Shown here piece after piece: positions 1,011 to 42,649 of a DNA stretch of 64,000 bases. The stretch's first letter is position 1, and each line of letters starts with the position of its first letter. A program made the position numbers and the translations under genes. Location of the stretch: contig OZ252100.1 of assembly GCA_965248435.1 (NCBI GenBank), positions 4,096,001 through 4,160,000 on the forward strand. The letters run 5' to 3'. Under the pieces are notes generated by a model, which saw nothing but the letters and a program-made list of their open reading frames with translations, did not search any database and was not told the origin of the DNA. Source of the DNA: Candidatus Latescibacterota bacterium. Lineage in GTDB: Bacteria > Latescibacterota > UBA2968 > GCA-2709665.

Positions 1011-1071
1011 AGGAGCTTGCTGAGGGAGGATCATGAGGGGTTGCGTCAACAGGGCGCAGCCCCTTTTGACG
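1011..1071 (+). repeat. Dispersed hairpin element family A, copy 1 (GAGGGARGATC...GGGGTTGCG-loop-CGCAGCCCCTT)
   Basis: Visible similarity to 5944-6030, 8300-8360 and 15626-15730; hairpin followed by Ts, terminator-like. Confidence 0.8.
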
Positions 1072-1081
1072 GGGGCCACAA

Positions 1082-2695: not shown

Positions 2696-2816
2696 TACCC
2701 AAAGTCTTTATAACACCTCGCGGGGAGGCAGCGGCCGGTTAGGCATCGCGGAGGCCTTCGCAGTTCATCCGCAGCCATGCTATGCTGACAAATGATTAAG
2801 GGGGGATTCCAGAAAG

Positions 2817-3239: not shown

Positions 3240-3351
3240 CATTGAATACAGTATGTTGTGCTCGCAAACCAAATGATAACCGTGGGGCGGTATCCTGTGA
3301 GAATCAGCTCTGTCTGGGGAATTATACTGACCTGCATAATTCATGTTAGAC
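3234..3351 (+). mobile_element. Integron att-like site (long attC or attI-like) ending GTTAGAC
   Basis: TAAC overlaps the upstream stop codon; GCATAA-5nt-GTTAGAC at the 3' end; about 70 bp shared with 8540-8609. Confidence 0.5.
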
Positions 3352-3402
3352 CGAGAGAAACCTCAACGCCGCTGCTGCTCCAGTTAGAAATGGAGAAACA
3401 CG

Positions 3403-4278
3403 ATGGAAGCAACGCAAGTAGACATCGATCCAAATGAAGAGATCGGTTTCATGAACATCGACGAAACCGGTTTCAGCAAATTCACGTTGGGAAAACAAAT
3501 CCGCCATCTCGAGGTGGAAGGCTATGTTGTTCTGCCGGACGTGCTCGACGCAGAGCTCATGGAGGAGATCAAGGCGGAGATGGCCGATGCACCCATGCAG
3601 ACCAAGGATTACAGCGACGCGCAGACCTACTGCTTGGAACCGCAGTGGCGCAGCCGAGCGCTGGCCAAGTTGATCGCACACCCTCCGGTGATCAAATTCC
3701 TGGAGGTCCTGCTCGGGACGGATATCGTGTTCACCCGGGGGCTTTTTACCCGCACGCTGTCCGGCTCGCCGCCCATCTCTTTGCATACGGACGGCCAGCC
3801 ATTCGGCTCCTCCATCTTCGGATACGAGGGGAGTTCGCCTCGCCTGCTTCGCGTACTTTACTACCTCGACGACCTGACACCCGAGCGAGCTCCGTTCCGT
3901 CTGGTGCCTCGCTCCCACCTGTCCTTTCACGCCGAGGCCAATCCCTACGTGCGCTATAAGTGGCATCCCGGTGAGGTTACCTTGTGTCCGAAGGCCGGCA
4001 CGGCGTTGATCATTCCCATCAATCTGTTCCACGGCACCCATCCCAACAGGGCGCGTTCGCAGCGCACTCTCGTCCAGTACGGTTACCGTCCCTCCTGGGC
4101 CGGGCCGATCAAGCCGATGGACGAGTGGGAGCCGGACCTCGTGGCCGCAGCGCCACCGGAAGCCAGGCGTTTACTGCAGAGTCCAAACACGACCGGCGTG
4201 GAATGGGACCAGCCACACAAACCCAGAGGCATGAAAATGGACGCGCCCGCCCTTAATCCGAAACGATGGGAGCGCTGA
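3403..4278 (+). CDS. Phytanoyl-CoA dioxygenase (PhyH) family Fe(II)/2OG dioxygenase
   Basis: EGYVVL start motif, HTD iron ligands, distal H in FHG. Confidence 0.85.
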   Translation: MEATQVDIDPNEEIGFMNIDETGFSKFTLGKQIRHLEVEGYVVLPDVLDAELMEEIKAEMADAPMQTKDYSDAQTYCLEPQWRSRALAKLIAHPPVIKFLEVLLGTDIVFTRGLFTRTLSGSPPISLHTDGQPFGSSIFGYEGSSPRLLRVLYYLDDLTPERAPFRLVPRSHLSFHAEANPYVRYKWHPGEVTLCPKAGTALIIPINLFHGTHPNRARSQRTLVQYGYRPSWAGPIKPMDEWEPDLVAAAPPEARRLLQSPNTTGVEWDQPHKPRGMKMDAPALNPKRWER

Positions 4279-4288
4279 GGAACGGTCT

Positions 4289-5866
4289 ATGAAGCAAACA
4301 GACTACACTTCACGTGTTCCAAGAACCACGTTCGCTGACACGCTGGAAGAGCAAGAAGCGCAACTGAGGACGAATCCCCTGATCCAACGGTTTGTCGAGT
4401 CACGTAGAAAGATGTCCGCGGATCCCTATCGCCCGATATACCATTACGTCAACCCAGAGAACCGCCTGAACGATCCAAACGGGCTGTGCTTTTGGCAAGG
4501 CCGTTGGCACCTCTTCTACCAGGCGTTTCCGCCGGAAGATTCGCGCCTGCACTGGGGACACGCCGTGAGCGATGATCTGGTCCACTGGCGAGACCTCCCC
4601 TATGCCATTCATCCTGATCCGGAAGAGGGCTGTTGGTCCGGTGCCACGCTGGTTGAAGCGTCCCGAGTGATTGCCATGTATCACGGGAATCAGGCCGGCA
4701 ACATGGTGGCCATATCCAGCGACCCCCTGTTGCTGAACTGGGAGAAGGTGACCGGCCAGCCGGTCATCCCCATCCGCAATCCTGATGGGACCCCTCCTCC
4801 TTACCGAGTATTCGATCCGTGCATCTGGAAGAAGGACGGCACGTACTACTCGCTTTCGGGAGGCACTCTGCCAGACGGACCCGGCGGCAAGATCGTCCGG
4901 GCCAATTTTCTGTTTCGCTCGAGGGATTTGACGAGGTGGGAGTATCTGCACCCGTTTGTTGAGGGCGACCGGTTCACGTTGGTCGGCGATGACGGCGCTT
5001 GTCCGTACTTCTGGCCGATCGGTGACCGTCACATCCTTCTGTTCTTCAGCCACATGAGCGGCGGACAGTACCTGTTGGGCGACTACGACCGGCAGCGCGA
5101 CAAATTCGTCGTCACGAATCACGGCAGGTTCAATTTCGGCTCGTATGACCCGGCCGGCGTACATGCGCCGTCCGCGACACCTGACGGCGAGGGAGGAATC
5201 ATCGTCATCTTCAACATGAATCCCGGCAAGCCCACCGAAGGCTGGAATCAAATCATGACGCTGCCGAGACGCTTGACGCTGATATCAGAAGACGAAGTGG
5301 GGATCGAGCTTGCTGGAGACGTCGCATCGCTGCGCCGCGATCATCAGCATGTCGACGCAATGGGGCTCCCCGCGAATCAGGAAGTGGTCCTTGAGAACAT
5401 CCGCGGCAACGCGATGGAAATCGTCGCGGAAATCGATCCGAAAGGCGCGCCGATCGTCGAAATGAACGTGTTACGATCTCCGAACAAGCAAGAATTCACC
5501 CGCATCGCGTTCTTCAGGGAGCGGGGTTACAAGAACCGGAAACACAGAACGGGTCCTCGATACAGCTTGATTACTGTAGATTCATGCTATTCGTCGCTCT
5601 GTCCGGATGTGGTCTCGCGTGCACCCGAGACGGGCCCGGTTGCCATTGAACCAGACGAGTTTCTTCAGCTACACGTCTTCATTGACCGCAGTGTCGTCGA
5701 GGTATTCGTCAACGGGAAGCAATGCATTGCGGTGCGTGTCTACCCCGACCGCGAGGATAGTGTCGGCGTATCGCTACGCTCCCAAGGCAGCGACGCTGAG
5801 CTCAAATCGTTCGATGCTTGGCAGATGGAGAATATCTATGAGCAAGCGCCCCGGACAGATACATGA
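4289..5866 (+). CDS. Glycoside hydrolase family 32-like protein
   Basis: NDPNG nucleophile motif, WHLFYQ, HWGHAVSDDL, C-terminal VFIDRSVVEVF. Confidence 0.88.
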   Translation: MKQTDYTSRVPRTTFADTLEEQEAQLRTNPLIQRFVESRRKMSADPYRPIYHYVNPENRLNDPNGLCFWQGRWHLFYQAFPPEDSRLHWGHAVSDDLVHWRDLPYAIHPDPEEGCWSGATLVEASRVIAMYHGNQAGNMVAISSDPLLLNWEKVTGQPVIPIRNPDGTPPPYRVFDPCIWKKDGTYYSLSGGTLPDGPGGKIVRANFLFRSRDLTRWEYLHPFVEGDRFTLVGDDGACPYFWPIGDRHILLFFSHMSGGQYLLGDYDRQRDKFVVTNHGRFNFGSYDPAGVHAPSATPDGEGGIIVIFNMNPGKPTEGWNQIMTLPRRLTLISEDEVGIELAGDVASLRRDHQHVDAMGLPANQEVVLENIRGNAMEIVAEIDPKGAPIVEMNVLRSPNKQEFTRIAFFRERGYKNRKHRTGPRYSLITVDSCYSSLCPDVVSRAPETGPVAIEPDEFLQLHVFIDRSVVEVFVNGKQCIAVRVYPDREDSVGVSLRSQGSDAELKSFDAWQMENIYEQAPRTDT

Positions 5867-5867
5867 C

Positions 5868-5926
5868 CTCTGACAAGCAGGATGCAGGAGACGGCTTACA
5901 GCCGCGCCTGATCCGCGACGTTAGGG
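5868..5926 (+). mobile_element. attC-like integron cassette site with a degenerate R'' box
   Basis: CTCTGAC AAGCAGGATGCAG...CTGATCCGCGAC GTTAGGG; typical short attC layout directly after a stop codon. Confidence 0.65.
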
Positions 5927-5943
5927 GGAGGGTCCCCGTCTAG

Positions 5944-6030
5944 AAGTCAAATGGAAGATGTCCGTAGAGGTCCGATTTGCCGAGGGAAGATCAACAGGGG
6001 GTTGCGTCAACACGGCGCAGCCCCTTGTAT
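5944..6030 (+). repeat. Hairpin element family A, copy 2
   Basis: ATGTCCGTAGAGG...GAGGGAAGATCA..GGGGGTTGCG..CGCAGCCCCTT, matches the 15626-15730 copy. Confidence 0.8.
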
Positions 6031-6068
6031 GTATAGAAGTCACGATCCAACCCAGGAGGTAAGTTACT

Positions 6069-6437
6069 ATGACCACTATGTCGCTTCAAAAGTCGGCAGA
6101 ATGGAAGATCGGTCTCCGGACCTACTTCGAGTACCGCGATCTCGGCATCCTAAAGGCCACAAAGGGCAAGGTCCTCGCGCACGTCATCCGTGCCACAGAA
6201 CCCTGCCCTGGTCCCGGTGGCAATCACACGCATGATGTGGAGTTCCAGATGAACTACATCCTGAACGGCTGGACCCGGGTCGAATTCGAGGATGTAGGTG
6301 AGGTCCGCTTCGAGGCCGGTGACGCCTGGCTCCAGGAGCCTAACATGAAACACGAAGTCCTGGAATTCTCCGACGATTTCGAAACGATCGAGATCTGTAT
6401 GCCGGCGGAATTCCCGACCCAGGACGCGCAACGCTGA
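6069..6437 (+). CDS. Cupin domain protein
   Basis: HTHDVEFQMNYILNG and GDAWLQEPNMKH cupin motifs; RBS AGGAGG. Confidence 0.85.
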   Translation: MTTMSLQKSAEWKIGLRTYFEYRDLGILKATKGKVLAHVIRATEPCPGPGGNHTHDVEFQMNYILNGWTRVEFEDVGEVRFEAGDAWLQEPNMKHEVLEFSDDFETIEICMPAEFPTQDAQR

Positions 6438-6445
6438 GGTGACAG

Positions 6446-7213
6446 ATGGGAAGGCTTGATGGCAAGGTAGCGGCGGTGACTGGCGGCGCATCGGGCATTG
6501 GCGAAGCTACGGTTCGGCTCTTCGTGGAAGAGGGCGCAAGGGTGGCCTTTGCAGATCGCGATGGCGCCCGCGGCGCCGAAGTGGCGAAAGAGATCCAGGC
6601 GAGCGGCGGAGAGGTGCTGTTCGTGGAGACCCACGTCGAGCGCGAGGTCGACGCGATCGCCTTCGTCGAGCGTGCGGTAGAACAGTTCGGTCAGCTCAAT
6701 ATCCTTGTCAATAACGCCGCCATCCGTCTCTACCAGGACGTGACCGAAGCCAGCGAGGAGAGCTGGGACACTATTCTGGGGGTGAACGTCAAGGGTTACG
6801 CCTTCTGCGCTAAGGCTGCCATTCCTGCGATGCGCCGCACGGGGAGCGGAAGCATCGTCAACATCGCCTCCAACAATGCGATTGTCGCGGGCGACAACAC
6901 GGTCCAGTACGATACCACGAAGGCGGCGGTCGCCGGCTTGACGCGCGGCATGGCCCGGGCTCACGCGGCCGACGGCATCCGGGTCAATGCGGTGTGTCCG
7001 GGACCGACATTTACGCCCTTTCACGCGCACCGTGCCGACGTGGCCGGGAAGACTCACGAAGAATTCAAGGAAGAATTCGGACAGCCCGTGATGCTCAAGC
7101 GGCCGGGGACACCCCAGGAGATCGCCGCGGGTGTCCTGTTCCTGGCTTCCGACGACGCGTCGTTCGTTACCGGCACCTGCCTGTTTGTGGACGGCGGTCA
7201 GTCGGCTATGTGA
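6446..7213 (+). CDS. Short-chain dehydrogenase/reductase (SDR)
   Basis: TGGASGIG, NNA, YDTTK (YxxxK), IRVNAVCPG. Confidence 0.92.
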   Translation: MGRLDGKVAAVTGGASGIGEATVRLFVEEGARVAFADRDGARGAEVAKEIQASGGEVLFVETHVEREVDAIAFVERAVEQFGQLNILVNNAAIRLYQDVTEASEESWDTILGVNVKGYAFCAKAAIPAMRRTGSGSIVNIASNNAIVAGDNTVQYDTTKAAVAGLTRGMARAHAADGIRVNAVCPGPTFTPFHAHRADVAGKTHEEFKEEFGQPVMLKRPGTPQEIAAGVLFLASDDASFVTGTCLFVDGGQSAM

Positions 7214-7344
7214 GGTCGCTAAAGCGCAAAAGAAAATCGGTAGGACAAGGGAAAGCGGCAGTGGAATAGAAACGGCTTTGTGTTTCGCGCCCAAAATTCC
7301 GCTTCAGAACCCGCCTTTTAGAACGGAGTCCCGGAGACACGATC

Positions 7345-7373
7345 TTGCAATCGCCAAGGGGCTTTACTATACT
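7345..7373 (+). promoter_or_regulatory. Sigma70-type promoter TTGCAA-N17-TATACT
   Basis: Consensus spacing; similar copy at 8420-8448. Confidence 0.6.
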
Positions 7374-7469
7374 CCAGCAGCAGTCATACCGATTATGCTG
7401 ACTCGCAGAATTCATGCCACAAGGGCATTCATCCCCTACGGACAATGCAGTACCTCTTAAACAAAATAT

Positions 7470-7685
7470 ATGAACCCTAAACAAAGTCCAAACCATCGAC
7501 TATATATTGAAGTCCTACGCAAGATGACTCCTGAAAGGAGACTGTTAAAAGCGTTCGAGCTATCTTCTTTCTCCAATCAGCTTTTCGTCCACGGCTTAAG
7601 AAAGAGATATGCCGATGCCTCAGGCGTAGAGTTTGCTGAAATTCTCAAGGATCGTCTGAACAAATGTCACAACAGGAATTATTAA
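7470..7685 (+). CDS. Small protein, putative partner (antitoxin-like) of the downstream nucleotidyltransferase
   Basis: 71 aa basic helical ORF overlapping the next gene; MTPERRLLKAFELS motif. Confidence 0.65.
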   Translation: MNPKQSPNHRLYIEVLRKMTPERRLLKAFELSSFSNQLFVHGLRKRYADASGVEFAEILKDRLNKCHNRNY

Positions 7686-8230
7686 GAAAGGTCATCGAAA
7701 CGCTCGACCGGAGTGGCATCGATTATATGGTCTCCGGATCTGTGGCTTCGAGTTTACAAGGGGAACCCCGATCGACGCATGACATTGATGTTGTAGTTTC
7801 TATTCAAGAAACCGACGTCGAGACACTGGTCGGAGCCTTTCTTCCTCCCACATACTATCTTGATGCAGAATCCATACGAGAAGCGATATCCCGTCGGTCG
7901 ATGTTCAACCTGACAGACGTCTTAGAGGGAGACAAAGCTGACTTTTGGATCTTGACCGATCAACCGTTCGATCAGTCTCGTTTTGCTCGTAAGTATGTAG
8001 AAGACGTGTTGGGTATGAGACTAACAGTATCCAGTCCCGAAGACACGATACTTGCCAAATTGCAGTGGGCATTGAAGTCGGGAGGTAGTGAGAAACAGTT
8101 CATAGATGCCCTTCGCGTCTTTGAAGTTCAACATGGCAACCTGGACCTGGCTTACCTGACTAGATGGACGGTAGATCTCGGGATTGAGGAAATGTGGAAG
8201 CGCCTGCTAGATGAGGCCGAAATCATATAG
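7664..8230 (+). CDS. Pol-beta-superfamily nucleotidyltransferase (AbiEii/DUF6036-like)
   Basis: GSVASSLQGEPRSTHDIDVVV (GS...DxD), SPEDTILAKL. Confidence 0.8.
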   Translation: MSQQELLRKVIETLDRSGIDYMVSGSVASSLQGEPRSTHDIDVVVSIQETDVETLVGAFLPPTYYLDAESIREAISRRSMFNLTDVLEGDKADFWILTDQPFDQSRFARKYVEDVLGMRLTVSSPEDTILAKLQWALKSGGSEKQFIDALRVFEVQHGNLDLAYLTRWTVDLGIEEMWKRLLDEAEII

Positions 8231-8299
8231 ACGGGCAATGGTGTAGTCCCAGCAAAACAGACGCGCTGACGTGACGCGCGCTAAAGTTACTCCGATGGA

Positions 8300-8360
8300 A
8301 GAGGATCAGGGGTTGCGTCAGCACGGCGCAGCCCCTTATGTCTGTCTGGATTGACGACGA
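8300..8360 (+). repeat. Hairpin element family A, copy 3
   Basis: GGATCAGGGGTTGCGTCAGCACGGCGCAGCCCCTT followed by TCTGTCTGGATTGACG, as in copy 4. Confidence 0.8.
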
Positions 8361-8419
8361 GACGCTTGGATGAATGCTGGAGTTGTGCAAATGCCCTCTC
8401 GACGCAAAGGATCGGGATG

Positions 8420-8448
8420 TTGCAGTCGGTAGGACGCTTTGCTATACT
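8420..8448 (+). promoter_or_regulatory. Sigma70-type promoter TTGCAG-N17-TATACT with extended TG
   Basis: Consensus spacing; similar to 7345-7373. Confidence 0.6.
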
Positions 8449-8458
8449 GTAACAATCG

Positions 8459-8609
8459 CCCTAACATCACCCATGGGGACTTTGTCAGATTGTCAAGTCC
8501 ATTTGGGTGTAGGAAGCGTGAGATCACAAAGAGGATGAAACCGTGGGGAGTATCCTGCTAGAATCAGCATTGTTTGGGAGTTATACTGAGCCGCATAACT
8601 CTGTTAGAT
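8459..8609 (+). mobile_element. Integron att-like site (long attC or attI-like) CCCTAAC...GCATAACTCTGTTAGAT
   Basis: CCCTAAC (R''-like) and GTTAGAT (GTTRRRY) boxes; 3' 70 bp similar to 3280-3351. Confidence 0.5.
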
Positions 8610-8734
8610 TGCTTGTTCGGGTAGCTTGATGGGCACGACGTGGCCTTATCCGATTGAATACGCCATCGTCCTGGCGATTGCCGTGGACTGCCTTGCCTTC
8701 TGCGTGCCTGGTGCGATCGTTCTAAACCTGGTTA

Positions 8735-10783
8735 ATGGCGGGACAGGCTATGCCGATTGACGGACTGTTTGAGGAACCTGACGAAATGCGCGAGATCCAA
8801 CCCGGGCTCGGCTTGGATGATCGCACTGGGCTTCGCGTGGTGAGCGCTGGATTCTTAGACGAACAGAAGTTCAACTGGGACCTATTTGATGGTTACGACA
8901 GCCTGAGTGTGCTGACATATTCAGCGAGCATCAAAGCCATCGTCAGGATGCTGGACAAGTATTCGTTCACAAAATTTGAGTGCGTATTTGGATATGAAGG
9001 TGTGCTGCGCGACATAAAGGATATCCTGGCGTTCCAGAAGGTGGTTGTTGGGGATGCGCGCGCCGCGATCATGGGGCTTAAGGACGAGCGATATATTCAC
9101 GTTCTAGAAAAAGTACATGCGGGTAAGGCATGCTTCCGCGTTCTTAGAAAGCACATCGCCCACGCAAAGCTGTATCTGCTATCCAGTGCTGATGGACGTA
9201 CACGTGTAATCATCGGCTCCGCCAACCTGTCTGAAAGGGCCTTTTCAGGAAATCAGTCTGAGACGCTGGTCAAATTTGATGACGATGAGAAGGCGTGGCA
9301 TCACTACAACCGTATGTTCGATGAAATTAGGGACTCGGCCTCTGATGAGATCCCCTTGCCCAAAGACAGTATCTCTAATGCGGAGATCGAGATCTCAGAA
9401 ACCCCAGTAATGGACGACCCGTCGATCACAGTCATTGTTGAGCCCCCCTCGACTGAGGAACTGGAAGTAACAGCACCCGCCCAGGTATTACGCGTAGAAA
9501 GGGTTGCGGCGGTAATTGGACAACGCGTGTCCGGAGCCATTCCACCCATTAAGAACGGTAAGCAACGGATTACTCCCGAGATAAAGAGGGAGATAAGCCG
9601 AATACGCCTCGTCAAGTCGGCCGAGGATGCAGACAGTCGCTATCTCTCCCTAGACAGGACGAATCGTGTAGCTCTGCTGTCGGGCGAGCGATTCCCAATG
9701 GAATGGGATAACGAATCAGTCAGCTCTGATGCGACAATGCTGCTGGATTACTTCAAGAACTATGAGGGCGCATTTGAGGGAAATGTGGCGCGCCTCCAGC
9801 GCGACTACTTTACTCTAATGGCCTGGTTGTATTTCTCGCCGTTCATCTGTGATATGCGCTCACTGGCGCTGCTGCAAGACAGCGATGTCATCCGATATCC
9901 GTCATTTGCGATTATTTTCGGCAAATCCAACTGTGGTAAGACCAGCCTGGTGGATACGCTGATGACATCTATGTTTGGCTATGCCCACACCGTAGAGAAA
10001 GCGAACTTTACTTCACGTCAACTTCGCGGGTTACAACAGGGATACAAGAGATTTCCCGTTGTGTTCGACGACATAGGGCGCAACGCTTTCATTCGCCATG
10101 GTAGAGATTTGATCAAGGACGAGATGCTGCCGCCCGTTAAAGAACACCCGGGTTTCATACTCTCTCTGAATGCGGAGCCGCAGTCGTTCCCCGACGAGGT
10201 GGTGAAACGCAGCATGATGATTTACACGACGACGGCGTTGCCACCACACAACGAGGAGTTGCGCCAGAGACTGCAGAGCAGGATACAGGTGATGCGCCGG
10301 GGGTTAACTGGACATCTCTATCGCCGATACTTGACAGAGGTCATGGATCGTCTCGACAATGAGCGGCTGCCGGAAGATTGGCTGGCGCTGTCGTCAGGTG
10401 TGCTGAGCAGCATCCTCTCAGACGGCAAACGTGGATCACCACCAGGCTGGTGTCGAACCGTAACCTGGTTTGACTACGCCGAGAAGCGGTATGATCGAGT
10501 AAAAGCCCGTCTCGATAACCTACTGAGGGTGTCGGCCTATGCCAAGAGCGAGGGCACTGTGCCCCGCGGATGGAGGATCGAGGCCGACAAGATTATCGTG
10601 TGGGAGCAACGGGATGCGTTCGGCAGACGTGAGTTTGATTGGGAGGACGTGCCTTCTACGCTAGTAGACGAGGAGGCTCGCGGCGGTGGCAGGACGGTGC
10701 TGCATCGAGCCAGTCTAGAGGAGTTCCTTGGTCGATCCTTGCGCCCGATGCGGCGTTGGTGGAAGCCCTGGGAGTCGGTTTAA
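8735..10783 (+). CDS. PLD/HKD-family nuclease domain fused to a P-loop ATPase (candidate defence protein); start may be 8750
   Basis: HAKLY...IIGSANLS PLD motif; Walker A GKSNCGKT; Walker B VVFDD. Confidence 0.8.
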   Translation: MAGQAMPIDGLFEEPDEMREIQPGLGLDDRTGLRVVSAGFLDEQKFNWDLFDGYDSLSVLTYSASIKAIVRMLDKYSFTKFECVFGYEGVLRDIKDILAFQKVVVGDARAAIMGLKDERYIHVLEKVHAGKACFRVLRKHIAHAKLYLLSSADGRTRVIIGSANLSERAFSGNQSETLVKFDDDEKAWHHYNRMFDEIRDSASDEIPLPKDSISNAEIEISETPVMDDPSITVIVEPPSTEELEVTAPAQVLRVERVAAVIGQRVSGAIPPIKNGKQRITPEIKREISRIRLVKSAEDADSRYLSLDRTNRVALLSGERFPMEWDNESVSSDATMLLDYFKNYEGAFEGNVARLQRDYFTLMAWLYFSPFICDMRSLALLQDSDVIRYPSFAIIFGKSNCGKTSLVDTLMTSMFGYAHTVEKANFTSRQLRGLQQGYKRFPVVFDDIGRNAFIRHGRDLIKDEMLPPVKEHPGFILSLNAEPQSFPDEVVKRSMMIYTTTALPPHNEELRQRLQSRIQVMRRGLTGHLYRRYLTEVMDRLDNERLPEDWLALSSGVLSSILSDGKRGSPPGWCRTVTWFDYAEKRYDRVKARLDNLLRVSAYAKSEGTVPRGWRIEADKIIVWEQRDAFGRREFDWEDVPSTLVDEEARGGGRTVLHRASLEEFLGRSLRPMRRWWKPWESV

Positions 10784-10879
10784 CCACTGATTCGTGGATG
10801 TGCCGAGAAGCGGACTCCAGGGGTTCCTTAGACGTGCAATCGAAAAACAATACAGAATGGCATCGCGTAGAAAACAATC

Positions 10880-10919
10880 ACGCCGTCAGAATGGAAACCC
10901 CTGACGGTGTTTTTTGTTT
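10880..10919 (+). terminator. Rho-independent terminator after the PLD-ATPase gene
   Basis: ACGCCGTCAG / CTGACGGTGT stem followed by TTTTTGTTT. Confidence 0.65.
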
Positions 10920-11056
10920 GTCTGTGACGCTCCCACAGAAGCCGCTCCGGCTGTGGCTAGGTGTGGTCGCCGTGATGCTGCAGATAGCAGATCTATAAGG
11001 GGAAGTAGTGAGCGGCTTTGGCCTATAATTCGTCTATGGTTGATTCGCCAGGACAT

Positions 11057-11295
11057 ATGGTTTCTGGAATTCCGCTACTCGAGGCCAAGCTCTATATCCC
11101 ATGTGGCGTCCCGGTCTGGTGTCGCGTCCGAGGCTGATCGAACGCATGCACCAGGGGATCGAGCGCAAGCTGACGCCCGTCTCGGCGCCTGCGCAAGACG
11201 ACGCTGCTGGCTGAATGGCTTACATCTGCCCGGGCCAGCGAGGGGGCCTCAGGATGGGTCTCACTTGATCAGAGCGACAATGACCCCGCTCATAT
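11057..11295 (+). pseudogene. 5' remnant of a MalT-type LuxR ATPase regulator
   Basis: Across frameshifts reads LLEAKLYIP / WRPGLVSRPRLIERMHQGIERKLTPVSAPA / KTTLLAEW / WVSLDQSDNDP; Walker A GFG is missing. Confidence 0.75.
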
Positions 11296-11319
11296 GTCTA
11301 TTCAAAGGAGTGATATTCA

Positions 11320-12135
11320 ATGACCGACACACGCCTGCTAAATATCGTCCGGCCCTGGATCGAAGAACGCATCGGCTTCCCATACTCGGCCATGAGCGAA
11401 GACAGTGTGGTGGTGTTGGCCTCTGACGCAGATACTCTGGACTTGCCTCTCAGAGCGATCAAGGTCAGCGGCAAGGCCGCCCTCGCTGCGCGCCCGGAGT
11501 GGGTCGAAGGACTCAGGACAATTGTGGATGACCTGCCATTAGACCTGCTCTTTTCGGAATTGGGAGCTTGCGACCTCGCGCGCGTCACGCTGCCAGACGG
11601 TGTCGGTATCTGGGGACCTGTGTGGTATTTCTTCGCAGACGAGGCGTGTTGGCAACCGTATGATGATGATCGCCCGGTACACCTTAGCCCTTCAGACCTG
11701 ACCAACGTGGACTACAACCTGTTTTGGCACTGCTCTCCAAACTCGCTTGCCGGATTCGGAATTATTGATGGCGACCGGTTGATTGCCCTGGCGACGGTGT
11801 GGGACTGTGGAGATCCGATGTGGGAGATTGGGATGGACGTAGTACCCGACGCCAAGCTGAGGGGTCTGGGACGCACGGTAGTGAGCGCCGCCACGAGGTG
11901 GATACTGAACCAAGGCAAGTTTGTTCAAGCGTCAACGGCTCCGTTCAACGTGCCGTCCGCGCGAACGCTGCGGTCTGTAGGTTTGCGGCACGTATTCACC
12001 GCCATGAACGGCACAGAAGGAACAATGCAGATTGGGCCGCAGACTCTGGGTCTCCCCTACCCATCGGCCGAAGTGCACAACCTCTATCCTGAGTGGGCGA
12101 TGAACAAGAACATTTTTCCCAAAAGGATGGGCTAA
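11320..12135 (+). CDS. GNAT-family acetyltransferase (C-terminal GNAT domain)
   Basis: EIGMDVVPDAKLRGLG acetyl-CoA motif; NVPSARTLRSVG; RBS AAGGAG. Confidence 0.8.
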   Translation: MTDTRLLNIVRPWIEERIGFPYSAMSEDSVVVLASDADTLDLPLRAIKVSGKAALAARPEWVEGLRTIVDDLPLDLLFSELGACDLARVTLPDGVGIWGPVWYFFADEACWQPYDDDRPVHLSPSDLTNVDYNLFWHCSPNSLAGFGIIDGDRLIALATVWDCGDPMWEIGMDVVPDAKLRGLGRTVVSAATRWILNQGKFVQASTAPFNVPSARTLRSVGLRHVFTAMNGTEGTMQIGPQTLGLPYPSAEVHNLYPEWAMNKNIFPKRMG

Positions 12136-12143
12136 GGTATTCG

Positions 12144-12995
12144 ATGGGTTGTGGCGAGAAAGGCACGCCGATTCGATACGTGAAACCGAGCTTCTCCGAT
12201 GACCTCTTTGTGGGGACTGCTACTCATTATGTCAGTTCAAGGCTGCCCTATCCAGAAGCCTTGAACGACGATCTGCTCGCGCGAGCGGGTGTATCCGGTG
12301 AAGGCATGCTTCTCGATCTGGCCTGTGGTCCGGGAAGAGTGGGCATTCCGCTTTCCTCCTCTTTCAAGGAGGTCTGGGCAATAGACCTCGAGCCGGAGAT
12401 GGTCGAGGTGGGAAAATCTGAGGCTCGGAAGCGGGATGTAACCAATATCGAGTGGTTCGTGGGCAGGGCTGAGGAATTGGAGGCCGACCCGGGATCGTTC
12501 GAGTTGATCACGATTGGAGAAGCGTTCCACCGGCTTGACCAGGAGCGGATCGCCCGACAGGCATTAGTGTGGTTGGAGCCTGGTGGCTGCCTGGCGATCA
12601 TGGGATGCAACAGCATGGTCAAGGGGAAAGAACCCTGGCAGCTCATCGTCGCCGACGTCGCCCGTTCGTGGAAGGACCGCGTGGCTCCGAGTAGTGGCAG
12701 CGCCGGCGGCGAAAGACCTGGCAGTGGGCCCGAACACAACCGCCTCGTTCTTAAGGACATCGGGTTCGAAGATGTCGGCAGCCACGACTTTCCGCACGCT
12801 CGCGAGAGAACCGTCGAGTCGATCATCGGCTGGCTGTTCTCAAGCTCCAGGTTCTCTGAAAGAGTCTGGGGCGACGACGCGAAGGCATTCGAGGCCGAGA
12901 TCAGAACCGCCCTTCTGGACCACGATGATCGCGGGGTCTACGTTGAGCGCGTTCAGTGCGGATATACAATTGGCAGAAGACCGTCATTAGATTGA
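12144..12995 (+). CDS. Class I SAM-dependent methyltransferase (start uncertain)
   Basis: LLDLACGPG motif I, AIDLEPEM, AFH, LEPGG. Confidence 0.85.
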   Translation: MGCGEKGTPIRYVKPSFSDDLFVGTATHYVSSRLPYPEALNDDLLARAGVSGEGMLLDLACGPGRVGIPLSSSFKEVWAIDLEPEMVEVGKSEARKRDVTNIEWFVGRAEELEADPGSFELITIGEAFHRLDQERIARQALVWLEPGGCLAIMGCNSMVKGKEPWQLIVADVARSWKDRVAPSSGSAGGERPGSGPEHNRLVLKDIGFEDVGSHDFPHARERTVESIIGWLFSSSRFSERVWGDDAKAFEAEIRTALLDHDDRGVYVERVQCGYTIGRRPSLD

Positions 12996-13002
12996 ACGTG
13001 AC

Positions 13003-13060
13003 GGCGAACGCATACTGCAGGGGATGCGAGCAAGGTCGCATCCTGAGCTCGGCGGCCGCC
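13003..13060 (+). mobile_element. Degenerate attC-like site
   Basis: GGCGAAC ... GGATGCGA/TCGCATCC stem, CTGAGC box; R' reads GGCCGCC instead of GTTCGCC. Confidence 0.5.
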
Positions 13061-13084
13061 ATGGAATTGGCGAAAAGGAACACA

Positions 13085-13936
13085 ATGGACAACGCAGTGC
13101 GCCGCAACTATCGCACCATCGATGTCCGCCCGATTTCCGGTGCGCTAGGCGCCGAAATCAAGGGCGTGGATATCGCGCGGCCCCTGGAAGATGAAGTCGT
13201 TTCGGAGATCCGTCAGGCCTTCCTCGACCATCTGGTTATCTTCTTCCGCAACCAGGAACTCACTCCGCAGGAGCAACTCGCTTTCGCCCAGTTATTCGGG
13301 CAGCCCATGGAATACCCTCTGATGAAGGGACTGCCGGAATGTCCGTCGATCACGGCGGTGATCAAGCTGGAGCACGAGCAGGTGAACTTCGGCGGCGTCT
13401 GGCATTCTGACACGACTTACCTGGAGCGTCCGCCGATGGCGAGCATGCTCTACGCAGTAGAGATTCCGCCCTACGGTGGCGACACCCTGTTCGCCAACCA
13501 GTACATGGCCTACGAGACGCTATCGGAGGGCCTGAAGAAGACACTCGACGGTCTGGTCGGCGTCAGCATCTCGACGAAGCCCGAGAACGCCAGTACGCGT
13601 GTGCATCGCTTGCGCGACGCGGGCGCGGAACTGAAAGTGCTGAGCGCAGCGCATCCTGTGGTTCGCACGCACCCGGAGACCGGGCGCAAGGCGCTTTACG
13701 TCAACAACGCCCACACAACGCACTTCGAAGGTTGGACCGAGGAGGAGAGCGGGTCTCTGCTCGACTACCTCTTCGAGCACCAGGTCAGACCAGAGTTCAC
13801 CTGCCGCTTCCACTGGGGGCAAGGCTCCCTCGCCCTCTGGGACAATCGCTGCGCTCAGCACAATCCGGTGAATGACTATCAGGGGTTCAAGCGCGTCATG
13901 CATCGTATTACACTGGCCGGCGACGAGCCACGCTAG
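13085..13936 (+). CDS. TauD/TfdA family 2OG-dependent dioxygenase
   Basis: GALGAEI, WHSD, GGDTLFAN, HPVVRTHPETG, WDNRCAQH. Confidence 0.92.
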   Translation: MDNAVRRNYRTIDVRPISGALGAEIKGVDIARPLEDEVVSEIRQAFLDHLVIFFRNQELTPQEQLAFAQLFGQPMEYPLMKGLPECPSITAVIKLEHEQVNFGGVWHSDTTYLERPPMASMLYAVEIPPYGGDTLFANQYMAYETLSEGLKKTLDGLVGVSISTKPENASTRVHRLRDAGAELKVLSAAHPVVRTHPETGRKALYVNNAHTTHFEGWTEEESGSLLDYLFEHQVRPEFTCRFHWGQGSLALWDNRCAQHNPVNDYQGFKRVMHRITLAGDEPR

Positions 13937-13999
13937 GCGCAGGCCAACATTCGGGGACCGGACGATGAAGATGAGGGTTCTGCAAGATCTGCTGTGGCT

Positions 14000-14037
14000 G
14001 CCTAACAAGCGGATGAAACCGACGGGGCAGCTTAGGA
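14000..14037 (+). mobile_element. Truncated attC (left half intact)
   Basis: GCCTAACAAGCGGATGAAACCGACG followed by a short, degenerate CTTAGG. Confidence 0.55.
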
Positions 14038-14060
14038 CATGACGGGAAAGGATTAATCAG

Positions 14061-14496
14061 ATGAACCTTATCATCTTTGGAGCCACCGGTGGCGTAGGTC
14101 GCCATCTTGTCGAATTTGCTCTCGCACAGGGACATGCTGTCACCGCGTTTGCTCGCGATCCAGCAAAGCTCGGCATCGAGCACGCGAACCTAAAGGTTGT
14201 TCAGGGCGATGTGATGGATTTCGCTTCAGTGGAGAAAGCCGTGCAAGGTCAAGAGGCAGTGTTGTCTTCGCTCGGGGCGGGGATGAAAAGCACGATCCGA
14301 TCAGAGGGGTCGCGACATATCATCCGCGCGATGGAGAAGGCGGGGATTCGAGCGCACAGGTGAATACCGACACGGCTTCCCGGTTTCCGATAAGACGATC
14401 AATGCCGAAATCTCGCGCGCCGATGTCGCCGACTTCATGTTGAAGCAGTTGGCGGACGATACTTACCTTCACAAGGCGCCAGGCTTGTCGTACTGA
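14061..14496 (+). pseudogene. NAD(P)H-binding flavin-reductase-like oxidoreductase with an internal deletion and frameshift
   Basis: N-terminus GATGGVG...MEKAGI; C-terminus ERTGEYRHGF...ISRADVADFMLKQL...PGLSY* in another frame; middle part missing. Confidence 0.82.
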
Positions 14497-14522
14497 ACCT
14501 GAACTCATTTTGGCGCGGCGCT

Positions 14523-14581
14523 GCCTAACAAGGCGCTGCAACCGACCGCGATCCGCACTGTGCTGAGCTTGGTCGTTAGCC
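14523..14581 (+). mobile_element. attC integron cassette site (best preserved)
   Basis: GCCTAAC AAGGCGCTGCAACCGAC...GCTGAGCTTGGTC GTTAGCC; all four boxes recognisable. Confidence 0.8.
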
Positions 14582-14611
14582 TGCATTAACACAAGAAAAA
14601 GAGACATTTCC

Positions 14612-15115
14612 ATGTCAACAGAAGCAGTCTTTCCGATTGCATTGATCTTGGCTACATTTCTGTGTTCCCTGGTGGCAGGCTTGCTGTTTGTTTTTGCCAT
14701 AGTGGTGATGCCGGGCATAGGAAGTTTAAATGACCGGGAGTTTATCCGAGCTTTTCAGGTGATAGATGGCGTTATCCAGAATAATCAGCCGATTTTTGTG
14801 TTTGTCTGGGTCGGTTCAGCTGTGGCTTTGGTGGCGTCGGCTGTGCTTGGCATCGGGCAATTGGATGGGGCTGAGCGTCTGCTCATAATCTTCGCCGCAC
14901 TCGCCTATCTTCTCTGCGTCCAATTGCCGACCGTCACTATTAACATACCGCTGAATAACAAACTGCAAACACTGGATGTCGACGCCATGAATGAAACAAC
15001 GCAAAATGCGGCCCGTATAGACTTCGAACCGCGTTGGAACCGATGGAACTCAATCCGGACAGCCGTTGCGAGCCTGGTATCTGCTCTGTTAATAATTCTA
15101 CTATTCAGACTTTGA
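14612..15115 (+). CDS. DUF1772 / anthrone-oxygenase-like membrane protein
   Basis: Four hydrophobic helices; NIPLNN and RWNRWNSIRT motifs. Confidence 0.82.
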   Translation: MSTEAVFPIALILATFLCSLVAGLLFVFAIVVMPGIGSLNDREFIRAFQVIDGVIQNNQPIFVFVWVGSAVALVASAVLGIGQLDGAERLLIIFAALAYLLCVQLPTVTINIPLNNKLQTLDVDAMNETTQNAARIDFEPRWNRWNSIRTAVASLVSALLIILLFRL

Positions 15116-15133
15116 AGACTTCGGTAGTGGACA

Positions 15134-15189
15134 GCAGTAAGGTGCTCCAGCGGACGCGCTAGCTCGCGTCGCTGAGCTTTGCGTTGGGC
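15134..15189 (+). mobile_element. attC-like site with an eroded R'' box
   Basis: GCTCCAGCGGACGCG...CGCGTCGCTGAGCTTTGC GTTGGGC. Confidence 0.65.
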
Positions 15190-15215
15190 ATCACAGAGAA
15201 AGGTGGAGGGAAGTT

Positions 15216-15620
15216 ATGGAATCGGGAACGAATGACCGGCAGTTTAGAGGAACCGCACCCTACTTTATGGTGTGCAATCTAGAGGCGTCATTGGCGTATT
15301 ATCATCAGGCGCTCGGCTTCAACATGCCTGAGCTCTGGGGAGACCCACCCAGGTTTGCGATGCCGTCGCGTGAGGGGTTCACGTTCATGCTTCACCAGGC
15401 CGAAGGGGGGGCAGACGTCAACACCATCCGTGATCAGGGCGGTACCTGGGATGCCTACATCTGGATCAACGACGCAGATTCCCTCTTTTCGAAGTTCCAG
15501 GAAGAAGGAGCCATATTCGAGTATGAACCGTGCATACAAGAGGAGTACGATATGAAGGAGTTCGCGGTTCGTGATCCGGACGGTCATATCATTGCATTCG
15601 GTCAGCATTACGAAGCATGA
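15216..15620 (+). CDS. VOC/glyoxalase/bleomycin-resistance family protein
   Basis: YHQALGF and EFAVRDPDGH motifs. Confidence 0.85.
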   Translation: MESGTNDRQFRGTAPYFMVCNLEASLAYYHQALGFNMPELWGDPPRFAMPSREGFTFMLHQAEGGADVNTIRDQGGTWDAYIWINDADSLFSKFQEEGAIFEYEPCIQEEYDMKEFAVRDPDGHIIAFGQHYEA

Positions 15621-15625
15621 AGGCC

Positions 15626-15730
15626 GAGTCGAATGGGAAATGTCCGTAGAGGAGCTTGTTGAGGGAAGATCACGAGGGGGTTGCGTCGTCGCGGTGCAGC
15701 CCCCTTATTTCTATCCAGGTTGACGGCGTC
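15626..15730 (+). repeat. Hairpin element family A, copy 4 (longest)
   Basis: Shares its 5' part with copies 1 and 2 and the 3' TTGACG segment with copy 3. Confidence 0.8.
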
Positions 15731-15757
15731 TGATTTCAAAATTCCCGGAGTGAATAA

Positions 15758-42614: not shown

Positions 42615-42649
42615 ACGGCGCATCCACAGTGACGTCGCACAAATGAAGA

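What the first reader, a model, noticed from the sequence alone, without database searches (positions are those of the whole stretch)
8735..10833. Stand-alone PLD-nuclease / P-loop ATPase fusion in a cassette position: candidate single-gene defence system
Seen: a 682-aa protein with an N-terminal HxK...GSxN PLD motif and C-terminal Walker A/B. No DNA methyltransferase is adjacent. It lies downstream of a promoter and an att-like GTTAGAT core. Its stop codon overlaps GTTTAAC, which is followed by a degenerate CTTAGAC, as in a gene cassette. Established: PLD nucleases (BfiI/NgoFVII-like) and nuclease-NTPase fusions are common anti-phage effectors, and integron cassettes can carry defence genes. 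Inference: an ATP-regulated nuclease that I cannot assign to a named system.
Basis: partly seen in the sequence, partly recalled or inferred. Interest (0 to 1): 0.75.

Follow-up and report, generated by a model that had tools for sequence, protein, structure and literature searches.

The report
PLD nuclease fused to ring-helicase ATPase
A lone, horizontally acquired gene fuses a restriction-enzyme-type DNA-cutting domain to an ATP motor that resembles the replication helicases of mobile elements; it is most likely a one-gene, ATP-driven defence nuclease of a widespread family that has not been tested, and it is not an integron cassette.

Summary
The ORF is real: 8735..10783 (+), 682 aa, with a probable start at 8750 giving 677 aa. 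Both motif sets are present and fully conserved. H143, K145, S162, N164, G396, G401, K402, N479 and R492 are invariant in 58 of 58 aligned homologues.

A confident AlphaFold model shows two modules. Residues 34-208 form a single-HKD PLD nuclease (Nuc, NgoAVII, BfiI). Residues 300-677 form an AAA+ helicase module closest to SCCmec Cch and SaPIbov1 Rep, then MCM. The PLD domain is predicted to homodimerise through its HKD motifs.

The family is large, carries the Pfam label Aq_aa27 and is under purifying selection. It is patchy among relatives. The window's copy sits inside a Chloroflexota clade although the genome is kin to Latescibacterota, so it was acquired laterally.

No PADLOC system matches at full length, and no DNA methyltransferase is nearby. 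Defence neighbours occur in some lineages (a Type I RM island, CBASS), but most loci, this one included, are metabolic. Enrichment against a distal control was not significant.

The integron reading fails: the core motifs occur at chance frequency and the genome has no IntI.

Best reading: a stand-alone ATP-driven restriction-like nuclease, a new variant of the SauUSI/END kind. The scan noted this family before on other DNA.

The parts
8735..10783 (+). ORF of the PLD-nuclease/AAA+ helicase fusion (682 aa including the stop codon; probable true start at ATG 8750, giving 677 aa)
   Evidence: the 677-aa public call P0002 is; M6 is conserved in at least 90% of 58 sequences
8834..9358 (+). N-terminal single-HKD PLD nuclease domain (residues 34-208)
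   Evidence: Pfam RE_NgoFVII and PLDc_2 score above their cut-offs. VIA-align: Nuc Z 12.3, NgoAVII R-protein Z 12.2-12.3, NucT Z 11.8, BfiI Z 9.7-9.8
9161..9226 (+). HKD catalytic motif, H143-x-K145 ... G161-S162-x-N164
   Evidence: H, K, S and N are invariant in 58 of 58 sequences. The motif lies in the predicted dimer interface
9359..9634 (+). Variable linker region (residues 209-300)
   Evidence: Lowest mean pairwise identity in the family, 0.16; pLDDT dips at 243-246 and 293-299
9635..10510 (+). AAA+ helicase-type ATPase module (residues 301-592)
   Evidence: SaPIbov1 Rep 8tch Z 13.7, SCCmec Cch 5dgk Z 13.6, MCM about Z 10, Foldseek hits to SV40/JCV large T
9920..9943 (+). Walker A, GKSNCGKT (residues 396-403)
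   Evidence: G396, G401 and K402 are invariant in 58 of 58; the sequence was read
10058..10072 (+). Walker B, VVFDD (residues 442-446)
   Evidence: D446 is conserved in 57 of 58 and D445 in 52 of 58
10169..10210 (+). Sensor-1 N479 and arginine finger R492
   Evidence: Both are invariant in 58 of 58. The assignment as sensor-1 and arginine finger is inferred from their position in the AAA+ fold
10511..10780 (+). C-terminal domain (residues 593-682), variable in sequence
   Evidence: Mean pairwise identity 0.21. It is covered by the Cch and SaPI Rep alignments up to residues 673-677. No hit when searched alone in the Atlas
10879..10920 (+). Terminator-like hairpin followed by a T-run, ending a one-gene unit
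   Evidence: The fold and the sequence. The simple scan listed this hairpin only on the - strand
8288..8335 (+). One copy of a locally repeated hairpin element, about 400 nt upstream of the gene; not shown to belong to it

Best explanation
The gene encodes a self-contained, ATP-dependent DNA endonuclease of restriction type that protects its host against incoming DNA such as phage or plasmid.

Shown:
- It has an N-terminal single-HKD PLD nuclease domain of the NgoFVII/BfiI/Nuc type with all catalytic residues intact.
- It has a C-terminal AAA+ helicase module of the Cch/SaPI-Rep/MCM type with intact Walker A, Walker B, sensor-1 asparagine and arginine finger.
- The gene is monocistronic, laterally acquired and under purifying selection.

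Inferred mechanism:
- The ATPase module oligomerises on DNA as its ring-forming relatives do, and uses ATP to load or translocate.
- Two PLD domains from neighbouring subunits pair to build one active site, as in Nuc and BfiI.
- That site cuts DNA without metal ions through a phosphohistidine intermediate.
- The variable linker (residues 209-300) and the C-terminal domain (593-682) are the likeliest determinants of which DNA is attacked.
- No cognate methyltransferase is present. Self/non-self discrimination is therefore probably either modification-dependent (Type IV-like) or based on DNA structures typical of invading replicons.
For: Anatomy:
- Pfam PLD families score above their cut-offs, and PF27394 Aq_aa27 is precomputed for the window's own protein.
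- The AlphaFold model has mean pLDDT 86.9.
- PLD fold matches: Nuc, NgoAVII and NucT at Z 11.8-12.3.
- Helicase module matches: Cch Z 13.4-13.6 and SaPIbov1 Rep Z 12.7-13.7. These came from a Foldseek-dependent search and from an independent search.
- SauUSI, an ATP-dependent PLD restriction enzyme, is recovered by Foldseek at E 5.2e-4 and by VIA-align at Z 12.2-13.2, though with rmsd about 16 A, so the match is domain-wise only.
- BrxL, an MCM-type AAA+ protein of BREX defence, matches at Z 8.2.
- Catalytic residues are invariant in 58 of 58 sequences down to 22% identity.
- PLD homodimer prediction: score 0.81 against a best control of 0.01. That mark was reached by 20 of 30 proteins solved as pairs and by 1 of 23 solved as single chains. 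The runs agree in at least 97% of contacts and the partner's pLDDT is at least 78. The interface includes residues 140-146, 159-163 and 174-182. Nuc-type dimers are already solved, so this pass shows likeness to them.

Accessory, mobile character:
- There is 1 copy in the genome.
- 22 of 41 related genomes have a match, and the same-genus genome G001 has none.
- The window's copy lies in a supported clade (SH-aLRT 97) of 18 rows, the other 17 all Chloroflexota. The genome's order-level kin carry Latescibacterota titles.
- GC is 0.51-0.52 across 8001-10000, against 0.58-0.61 in the flanking DNA.
- dN/dS is 0.07-0.17 in 13 pairs.

Defence context in some lineages:
- In the Latescibacterota genus g6 the gene sits between SoFic or a Schlafen-like gene and hsdM of a Type I RM island. 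That slot is empty in G040.
- CBASS cyclase and E1-E2 genes lie directly upstream in L047 and L068.
- 29 of 80 loci, or 11 of 33 context groups, have a defence-type PADLOC hit within 2 genes.
- On Acetobacteraceae plasmids the gene lies among toxin-antitoxin modules, and those plasmids carry a separate RepA.

Precedent:
- Single-gene PLD defence nucleases with swappable C-terminal domains, and PLD-motor enzymes, are described in passages read in PMC12191111 and in bioRxiv 10.64898/2026.09.23.753747.
Against: - No member of this family has been tested, as far as my literature searches show.
- No PADLOC model matches at full length.
- 51 of 80 loci, the window included, have no defence-type neighbour within 2 genes. 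The window's neighbours are metabolic genes.
- The rate of defence-type hits among proximal neighbour clusters is 21 of 215. Among clusters at least 6 kb away it is 8 of 148. Fisher p = 0.17, so enrichment is not demonstrated.
- The labels 'specific' and 'generic' were assigned by me. Four proximal hits were dropped as generic, and four distal ones.
- The closest structural relatives of the ATPase are replication helicases of mobile elements, not known defence motors.
- How self DNA would be spared is unknown.
Confidence: 0.55

Rival explanations
1. It is the restriction subunit of a modification-dependent-on-self system. It would cut unmodified DNA and rely on a methyltransferase encoded elsewhere or nearby, so it is not truly autonomous.
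For: In the Latescibacterota genus g6 the gene abuts hsdM. In the Acidimicrobiia group a Type II methyltransferase lies 2-4 genes away in L086, L094 and L100. BfiI and NgoAVII PLD enzymes work with cognate methyltransferases (passage in PMC12191111).
Against: Most loci have no DNA methyltransferase within 2 genes, and the window has none among 20 flanking ORFs. The hsdM next to the g6 copies belongs to a complete Type I system that is also present without the gene in G040.
Confidence: 0.15
2. It is a replication or mobility protein of a selfish element. The PLD domain would nick DNA through a covalent phosphohistidine link and the helicase would unwind it, analogous to HUH-helicase Rep proteins.
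For: The ATPase module is closest to the SaPIbov1 Rep and SCCmec Cch replication helicases. The gene appears as a lone unit in very different contexts and phyla. DNA similarity to relatives stops within about 10 bp of the ORF ends (8724-10788).
Against: There is a single copy in the genome. No conserved non-coding ends or target duplications were seen at the filled versus empty site. It is found in 0 of 50,697 phage records and in only 12 of 72,556 plasmid records, all of 57-246 kb; the one inspected record that shows a replication gene (H6) has its own RepA. There is no integrase next to it in the window.
Confidence: 0.08
3. It is a housekeeping DNA repair or replication-restart enzyme.
For: It is under purifying selection, has intact helicase-type motifs and has metabolic neighbours.
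Against: It was not found in the same-genus genome or in 19 of 41 relatives. Broken copies occur in G003 and G033. The tree shows cross-phylum placement, and GC is atypical.
Confidence: 0.05
4. It is an integron gene cassette flanked by attC-type sites, as the first reader read its position.
For: The genes of the first ~45 kb of the window are co-oriented on the + strand. The strings GTTAGAT, GTTTAAC and CTTAGAC exist. A local hairpin repeat occurs 4 times in intergenic gaps.
Against: The core motif occurs at chance frequency, 83 observed against 83.5 expected. No integron integrase scores above the cut-off in the genome. The putative attC does not fold better than shuffles. The hairpin repeat lacks the attC core motifs, and the segments it bounds hold several genes.
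Confidence: 0.03

Closest known systems
[quoted passage not shown]
   Same: [quoted passage not shown] The PLD domain matches structurally. SauUSI acts as a dimer that cuts after ATP-driven translocation (abstract of PMC7913695; passages).
   Different: The motor of SauUSI is an SF2 helicase; here it is an AAA+ module of Cch/MCM type. No SRA-like target-recognition domain was detected. The overall superposition is poor (rmsd about 16 A), so the likeness is domain-wise only.
END nucleases and the BfiI/NgoAVII/NgoFVII PLD restriction enzymes
   Same: An N-terminal BfiI/NgoAVII-like PLD nuclease with an HxK motif. END is a one-gene defence with an exchangeable C-terminal domain (passages of PMC12191111).
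   Different: The C-terminal part here is an ATPase, not an EndoIII-like, EVE or B3-like DNA-binding domain. BfiI and NgoAVII have cognate methyltransferases; this gene has none.
SCCmec Cch and SaPIbov1 Rep self-loading helicases (PDB 5dgk, 8tch)
   Same: These are the best structural matches for residues 300-677: Z 13.4-13.7, with 216-311 residues aligned.
   Different: Sequence identity is only 11-13%. Their N-terminal origin-binding region is replaced here by a nuclease. They act in element replication, and the elements they belong to are absent around this gene.
BrxL (BREX) and MANTIS MtsD
   Same: BrxL shows that an MCM-type AAA+ protein can serve phage defence (Z 8.2; passage of PMC12839542). 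MtsD couples a PLD nuclease to an ATPase in a defence system.
   Different: BrxL has no nuclease and works within the multi-gene BREX system. MtsD uses an SF2 motor and needs MtsABC.

Membership tests
PLD (HKD) nuclease superfamily, NgoFVII/BfiI-type domain (PF09565, PF13091) | HxK ... GSxN catalytic motif | tested here: met
   H143, K145, S162 and N164 are invariant in 58 of 58 sequences
PLD (HKD) nuclease superfamily, NgoFVII/BfiI-type domain (PF09565, PF13091) | Profile score above the curated cut-off | tested here: met
   RE_NgoFVII 32.8 against 23.8 bits; PLDc_2 31.0 against 27 bits
PLD (HKD) nuclease superfamily, NgoFVII/BfiI-type domain (PF09565, PF13091) | PLD fold | tested here: met
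   Nuc Z 12.3 (rmsd 3.2, 132 aligned); NgoAVII Z 12.2-12.3; NucT Z 11.8
PLD (HKD) nuclease superfamily, NgoFVII/BfiI-type domain (PF09565, PF13091) | A single-HKD protein forms its active site by homodimerisation | tested here: met
   Prediction only: score 0.81 against a best control of 0.01, with the HKD residues in the interface. Similar dimers are already solved, so this shows likeness rather than binding
BfiI/NgoFVII-type Type IIS restriction enzymes | C-terminal B3-like DNA-binding domain and a cognate methyltransferase | tested here: not met
   The C-terminal part is an AAA+ module. There is no DNA methyltransferase among 20 flanking ORFs
Pfam PF27394 (Aq_aa27 P-loop NTPase) | Match to the family model | tested here: met
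   Precomputed for the window's own protein P0002 and for all 120 listed homologues; named. The local Pfam copy lacks this model
AAA+ ring helicases of the Cch/SaPI-Rep/MCM/SF3 kind | Walker A, Walker B, sensor-1 Asn and arginine finger in an AAA+ fold | tested here: met
   G396, G401, K402, D446, N479 and R492 are conserved. Cch Z 13.4-13.6, Rep Z 12.7-13.7, MCM about Z 10. Pfam RNA_helicase scores only 18.9 bits, below its 21.5 cut-off
AAA+ ring helicases of the Cch/SaPI-Rep/MCM/SF3 kind | Hexamer formation and DNA unwinding | not testable with these tools
   A hexamer exceeds the size limit of the complex predictor; activity needs biochemistry
SauUSI-like Type IV restriction enzymes | SF2 helicase motor and a modified-base-binding target-recognition domain | tested here: not met
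   The motor is AAA+, not SF2. No SRA, EVE or PUA family appears in Pfam at E <= 1
Named anti-phage systems in PADLOC-DB v2.0.0 | Full-length match to a system protein | tested here: not met
   Local hits only: ZacB residues 143-199, PLD_Helicase 115-212, mad8 384-535, GajA P-loop
Integron gene cassette | attC site with paired R''/R' cores in a folded hairpin, and an integron integrase | tested here: not met
   Core motif at chance frequency; fold z -1.33; best IntI-model hit 104 bits against a 265 cut-off. No attC covariance model was available

The most novel reading that the evidence does not exclude
The protein may not be a defence enzyme at all. It could be the sole gene of a new kind of selfish DNA unit, in which a PLD nuclease takes the place of the HUH domain of Rep proteins. 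The PLD domain would nick DNA through a covalent phosphohistidine link, and the attached Cch/Rep-like helicase would then drive copying or homing of the gene into new sites. This would explain why an ORF-sized unit turns up alone in unrelated contexts across at least five phyla by record title.
Probability: 0.06. Interest if true: 0.85.

Novelty: new variant of a known kind. Interest (0 to 1): 0.5.

Why it matters
Enzymes that couple a PLD nuclease to an ATP motor are a proven defence design: SauUSI, MANTIS MtsD and the single-gene END nucleases. All characterised motors of that design are SF2 helicases.

Here the motor is a ring-helicase-type AAA+ module whose nearest solved relatives replicate staphylococcal mobile islands. 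If it defends, it would show that a replication-helicase module was recruited as the engine of a one-gene restriction enzyme. It would also add a compact, widespread system to the defence catalogue (867 clusters at 50% identity, in both Bacteria and Archaea).

The gene is small and monocistronic, and it has clear catalytic residues to mutate, so the question can be tested directly.

Tried and rejected
- Integron cassette reading: rejected.
- Rfam over the window at gathering thresholds, and over 900-15800 at E <= 0.5: nothing.
- Sequence search of the PDB with the 58-sequence family profile: only a marginal NucT hit, E 0.055.
- PHROGs and NCBIfam: no significant hit to the protein.
- Synteny with the same-genus genome G001: only the cupin+SDR pair (6046-7210) is shared, so the insertion borders in this genome could not be set.
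- Filled versus empty site in genus g6: the unit that differs is ORF-sized (2121 bp in L077 against 361 bp in G040). There is no remnant of the gene and no visible target duplication.
- Flanking DNA: no similarity to any of 80 related loci outside 8724-10788.
- C-terminal domain searched alone in the protein Atlas: no usable hit.
- Expression: no RNA holder was listed among public runs. Four DNA runs from one study hold the stretch.
- Literature searches for the family name or the architecture found nothing on this family.
- The first attempt at search for related loci, with the 58-sequence alignment, failed for lack of a conserved stretch. It was repeated with a 12-sequence alignment.
- Hairpin repeat: a metagenome scan found one unrelated 1-kb contig.
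Full report
**Observation.** The + strand carries one uninterrupted ORF from 8735 to 10783, encoding 682 aa. The public gene call for the identical protein is 677 aa (P0002), and the methionine at position 6 is conserved in at least 90% of 58 homologues. The real start is therefore probably ATG 8750.

The PLD motif is H143-A-K145 followed by G161-S162-A-N164, with E176. Walker A is GKSNCGKT at residues 396-403 and Walker B is VVFDD at 442-446. Pfam places residues 127-199 in RE_NgoFVII (32.8 bits, cut-off 23.8) and in PLDc_2 (31.0 bits, cut-off 27). The P-loop region gives only a sub-threshold RNA_helicase match (18.9 bits, cut-off 21.5).

**The cassette claim.** The strings GTTAGAT (8603-8609), GTTTAAC (10778-10784, over the stop codon) and CTTAGAC (10827-10833) exist. 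However, the integron core pattern GTTRRRY occurs 83 times in the window against 83.5 +/- 8.6 in shuffles. The segment downstream of the stop folds no better than shuffled sequence (z -1.33). Its one strong hairpin, at about 10879-10907, is followed by TTTTTTGTTTG, which is an ordinary terminator-like structure.

In the whole 5.67-Mb assembly, the integron-integrase model finds nothing above 104 bits against a cut-off of 265. Those hits are multi-copy tyrosine recombinases located elsewhere. Promoter-like sites in the region are no more frequent than chance, 6 against 3.5 +/- 1.9. The positional part of the finding is therefore not supported.

**Anatomy.** I built a 58-sequence alignment of full-length homologues, down to 22% identity to the query. 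In it, H143, K145, S162, N164, E176, G396, G401, K402, P441, N479, R492 and D548 are invariant, and D446 is conserved in 57 of 58.

AlphaFold2 run on that alignment gave a confident model, with mean pLDDT 86.9 and pTM 0.69. Three structure searches agree with one another:
- Foldseek against the PDB.
- VIA-align on Foldseek's list.
- VIA-align against 48,161 representative chains, independent of Foldseek.

Residues 34-208 form a PLD nuclease fold:
- Nuc: Z 12.3, rmsd 3.2, 132 residues aligned.
- NgoAVII R-protein: Z 12.2-12.3.
- NucT: Z 11.8.
- Zucchini: Z 10.5.
- BfiI: Z 9.7-9.8.

Residues 300-677 match the self-loading replicative helicases of staphylococcal mobile islands best:
- SCCmec Cch (5dgk): Z 13.4-13.6, 251-311 residues aligned.
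- SaPIbov1 Rep (8tch): Z 12.7-13.7, 216-302 residues aligned.
- MCM proteins: Z about 10.
- Viral SF3 helicases, by Foldseek: SV40 and JCV large T at E 3e-4 to 7e-4.
- Viral SF3 helicases, by VIA-align: papillomavirus E1 Z 8.4 and vaccinia D5 Z 8.3.
- BrxL of BREX: Z 8.2.

N479 and R492 sit where the sensor-1 residue and the arginine finger are expected in this fold; this assignment is an inference.

The linker (residues 209-300) and the C-terminal domain (593-682) are the most variable parts of the family, with mean pairwise identity 0.16 and 0.21. The PLD domain and the ATPase core are both at 0.33.

A protein with a single HKD motif must pair to form an active site; this is established knowledge for Nuc and BfiI. 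The complex predictor supports a homodimer of residues 30-215:
- Score 0.81 against a best control of 0.01.
- That mark was reached by 20 of 30 proteins solved as pairs and by 1 of 23 solved as single chains.
- The runs agree in at least 97% of contacts, and the partner's pLDDT is at least 78.
- Residues 140-146, 159-163 and 174-182 lie in the interface.

Similar dimers are already solved, so this result shows likeness to them and does not prove binding.

**The family.**
- The word-indexed search found 1248 proteins at E <= 1e-3 among 8000 scored candidates. The 120 listed are all full length (611-720 aa) at 71-100% identity, and all carry the precomputed Pfam family PF27394.
- The exhaustive search of 50%-identity representatives found 867 hits at E <= 1e-3, 555 at <= 1e-10 and 237 at <= 1e-30. 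Full-length members reach down to 26% identity.
- The protein Atlas names PF27394 'Aq_aa27' P-loop NTPase. It shows clusters with the same architecture in Pseudomonadota, Chloroflexota, Bacillota and Methanobacteriota, some with an added HTH_3 domain.
- NCBI names for members include 'NgoFVII family restriction endonuclease' and 'phospholipase D family protein'.
- No PADLOC v2.0.0 model matches at full length. The best hit is the PLD motif of ZacB, 1.8e-7 over residues 143-199.
- NCBIfam and PHROGs give nothing significant.
- The family profile finds no solved structure by sequence.
- Literature searches on the family name and on the architecture found no paper about it.

**Accessory and horizontally moving.**
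- The genome has one copy.
- Among 41 genomes (own plus 40 relatives), 22 have a match. The same-genus genome has none. Genus g3 has 7 of 15, at about 40% identity. Genus g6 has 14 of 16, at 58-67%. Two genomes carry broken copies.
- The window's protein is nevertheless 80-86% identical to Chloroflexota/Dehalococcoidia proteins.
- In a maximum-likelihood tree of 80 rows it falls in a supported clade (SH-aLRT 97) of 18 rows, of which the other 17 are Chloroflexota. This clade is apart from the 13-row Latescibacterota clade.
- GC is 0.51-0.52 across 8001-10000, against 0.58-0.61 on either side.
- The scan of one genome per species found 378 stretches that encode a relative. The 80 kept come from Chloroflexota, Latescibacterota, Acidimicrobiia, a Longimicrobiales genome and a gammaproteobacterial genome.
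- dN/dS is 0.13-0.15 for the window against six close relatives, and 0.07-0.17 in seven other pairs. The gene is therefore maintained by selection.

**Context.** No neighbouring gene is conserved across the family, so the gene stands alone.

In the window it follows an overlapping pair of small ORFs: 7470-7685 (71 aa) and 7664-8230 (188 aa). The second gives weak, sub-threshold nucleotidyltransferase hits. The gene precedes a GNAT-like gene, a UbiE/MenG-like methyltransferase and a TauD dioxygenase. None of these hits a PADLOC model apart from a partial generic SAM-domain match.

In Latescibacterota genus g6 the homologue lies in a variable slot of a Type I RM island. The slot sits between SoFic or a Schlafen/AlbA_2 gene and hsdM. 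DUF1016, a zeta-like kinase, hsdS, and sometimes a SIR2-TPR gene or a 1480-aa gene are nearby. In G040 that slot is empty. The difference between L077 and G040 is an ORF-sized piece, 2121 bp against 361 bp, with no remnant of the gene and no visible duplication.

In L047 and L068 a CBASS cyclase and an E1-E2 gene lie directly upstream, and a serine recombinase lies downstream of L068.

**Counting defence neighbours.** I called ORFs in the window and in the 80 fetched loci. I dropped L083 because no ORF there clustered with the family. I clustered all neighbours and scanned one representative of each of the 215 clusters found within 2 genes, at E <= 1e-12.
- 25 representatives had a hit. I set aside 4 as generic: a partial SAM-methyltransferase match, an oxidoreductase, an ABC ATPase and a cysteine desulfurase.
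- With the remaining 21, 29 of 80 loci have a defence-type neighbour. Grouped by shared neighbours, that is 11 of 33 context groups.
- As a control I scanned 148 randomly drawn clusters lying at least 6 kb from the gene in the same loci. 12 had a hit, and I counted 8 as defence-type after setting aside 4 as generic by the same judgement.
- The contrast is 21 of 215 against 8 of 148, Fisher p = 0.17. Counting all hits it is 25 of 215 against 12 of 148, p = 0.30.

The association with defence genes is real in particular lineages but is not shown for the family as a whole. The control is conservative, because defence islands can exceed 6 kb.

**Plasmids and phages.**
- 12 of 72,556 plasmid records hold a relative at 24-31% identity. 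All are plasmids of 57-246 kb.
- In the two records I inspected, the gene sits among toxin-antitoxin modules near the relaxase. One of them has its own RepA.
- 0 of 50,697 phage records hold a relative.

**How it most likely works.** The following are shown: the two catalytic modules, their conservation, the one-gene organisation and the lateral spread.

The rest is inferred:
- By analogy with ring-forming Cch, Rep and MCM relatives, the ATPase oligomerises on DNA and uses ATP to load or move.
- PLD domains of adjacent subunits pair and cut DNA without metal through a phosphohistidine intermediate.
- The variable linker and C-terminal domain set the target.
- With no methyltransferase at hand, the enzyme either needs modified DNA, as SauUSI and the END nucleases do, or recognises structures of invading replicons.

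Precedents were read in passages. PLD nucleases with exchangeable C-terminal sensors form one-gene defences (PMC12191111). PLD-motor effectors occur in MANTIS, and SauUSI is an autonomous dimer (bioRxiv 10.64898/2026.09.23.753747). BrxL carries an MCM-family AAA+ domain in BREX (PMC12839542). For PMC7913695 I saw only the listing and the start of the abstract.

**Rivals.**
1. A restriction subunit that depends on a methyltransferase elsewhere. This is suggested by hsdM next to the g6 copies and by Type II methyltransferases 2-4 genes away in some Acidimicrobiia. Most loci lack one.
2. A replication or mobility protein of a selfish unit. This is suggested by the Rep/Cch likeness and by the ORF-sized, context-free spread. 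Against it stand the single copy, the lack of conserved ends, the absence from phage records and the absence from small plasmids.
3. A housekeeping repair enzyme, which the patchiness and the tree contradict.
4. An integron cassette, refuted above.

**Novelty and verdict.** The gene belongs to a catalogued but experimentally untouched family. Its design, a PLD nuclease plus an NTP motor in one gene, is a known kind. The motor type is new for that kind. I tested the architecture and the closest relatives independently here. Interest is moderate: the idea is easy to test and would add a compact system to the defence catalogue, but the principle is not surprising.

Noticed in passing
window 1037-1063, 5998-6024, 8309-8335, 15677-15703 (extended copies 1016-1063, 5977-6024, 8288-8335, 15656-15703): A hairpin element (GGGGTTGCG stem, 9-nt loop, CGCAGCCCC, preceded by GA[GA]GATCA) occurs 4 times, always on the + strand and always in the gap after a gene end. 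These are the only copies in the 5.67-Mb genome. None was found in 40 relatives at up to 2 mismatches, and one unrelated 1-kb contig turned up in the metagenome scan. There is no Rfam match. It may mark the borders of laterally acquired segments, or it may be a shared terminator or leader. It remains unexplained.
   Followed up: partly
window 7470-7685 and 7664-8230 (+): An overlapping pair of small ORFs (71 aa and 188 aa) lies just upstream, in the same low-GC stretch (0.50 for 7001-8000). The 188-aa protein gives only weak, sub-threshold hits to nucleotidyltransferase families (Aminoglyc_resit 4.2e-4, DUF6036 9.2e-4) and nothing in NCBIfam or PADLOC. It could be a toxin-antitoxin-like module that arrived together with the nuclease gene.
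   Followed up: partly
window 1-45000: Nearly all long ORFs of the first ~45 kb lie on the + strand and encode unrelated metabolic enzymes, with GC varying between 0.47 and 0.65. Only the cupin+SDR pair (6046-7210) is shared with the same-genus genome. The region looks like a patchwork of acquired genes.
   Followed up: partly
window 29307-29347, 41650-41690, 42646-42695, 42803-42843, 43685-43725, 44606-44646: A second family of terminator-like hairpins (CCCCGTCCTGA ... TCAGGGCGGGG followed by a T-run) is repeated after several genes. There are also two pairs of roughly 300-nt direct repeats at 90% identity (29375/29916 and 40762/41766), which indicate tandemly duplicated small genes.
   Followed up: no
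own genome, G000:C1 1448949, 2072264, 3850047, 4651479, 4843728, 5171594: Six near-identical copies of a 314-aa tyrosine recombinase gene (104 bits to the integron-integrase model, far below its cut-off) are scattered over the chromosome. They are probably a multi-copy mobile element.
   Followed up: no
L015 1829-6268 (also L013, L060, L073, L075): A 1480-aa protein with no Pfam or PADLOC hit occupies the same variable slot of the Latescibacterota Type I RM island, between the Fic gene and the Schlafen-like gene. It is a candidate unknown defence gene.
   Followed up: no
G027:C1:1411188-1411301, G031:C184:654-767, G033:C29:11700-11807: Short fragments equivalent to residues 58-96 of the protein, each with one in-frame TGA, occur in three Latescibacterota genomes. 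In G027 the fragment lies about 1.5 kb from the intact copy. They are probably remnants of earlier copies in the same slot.
   Followed up: no
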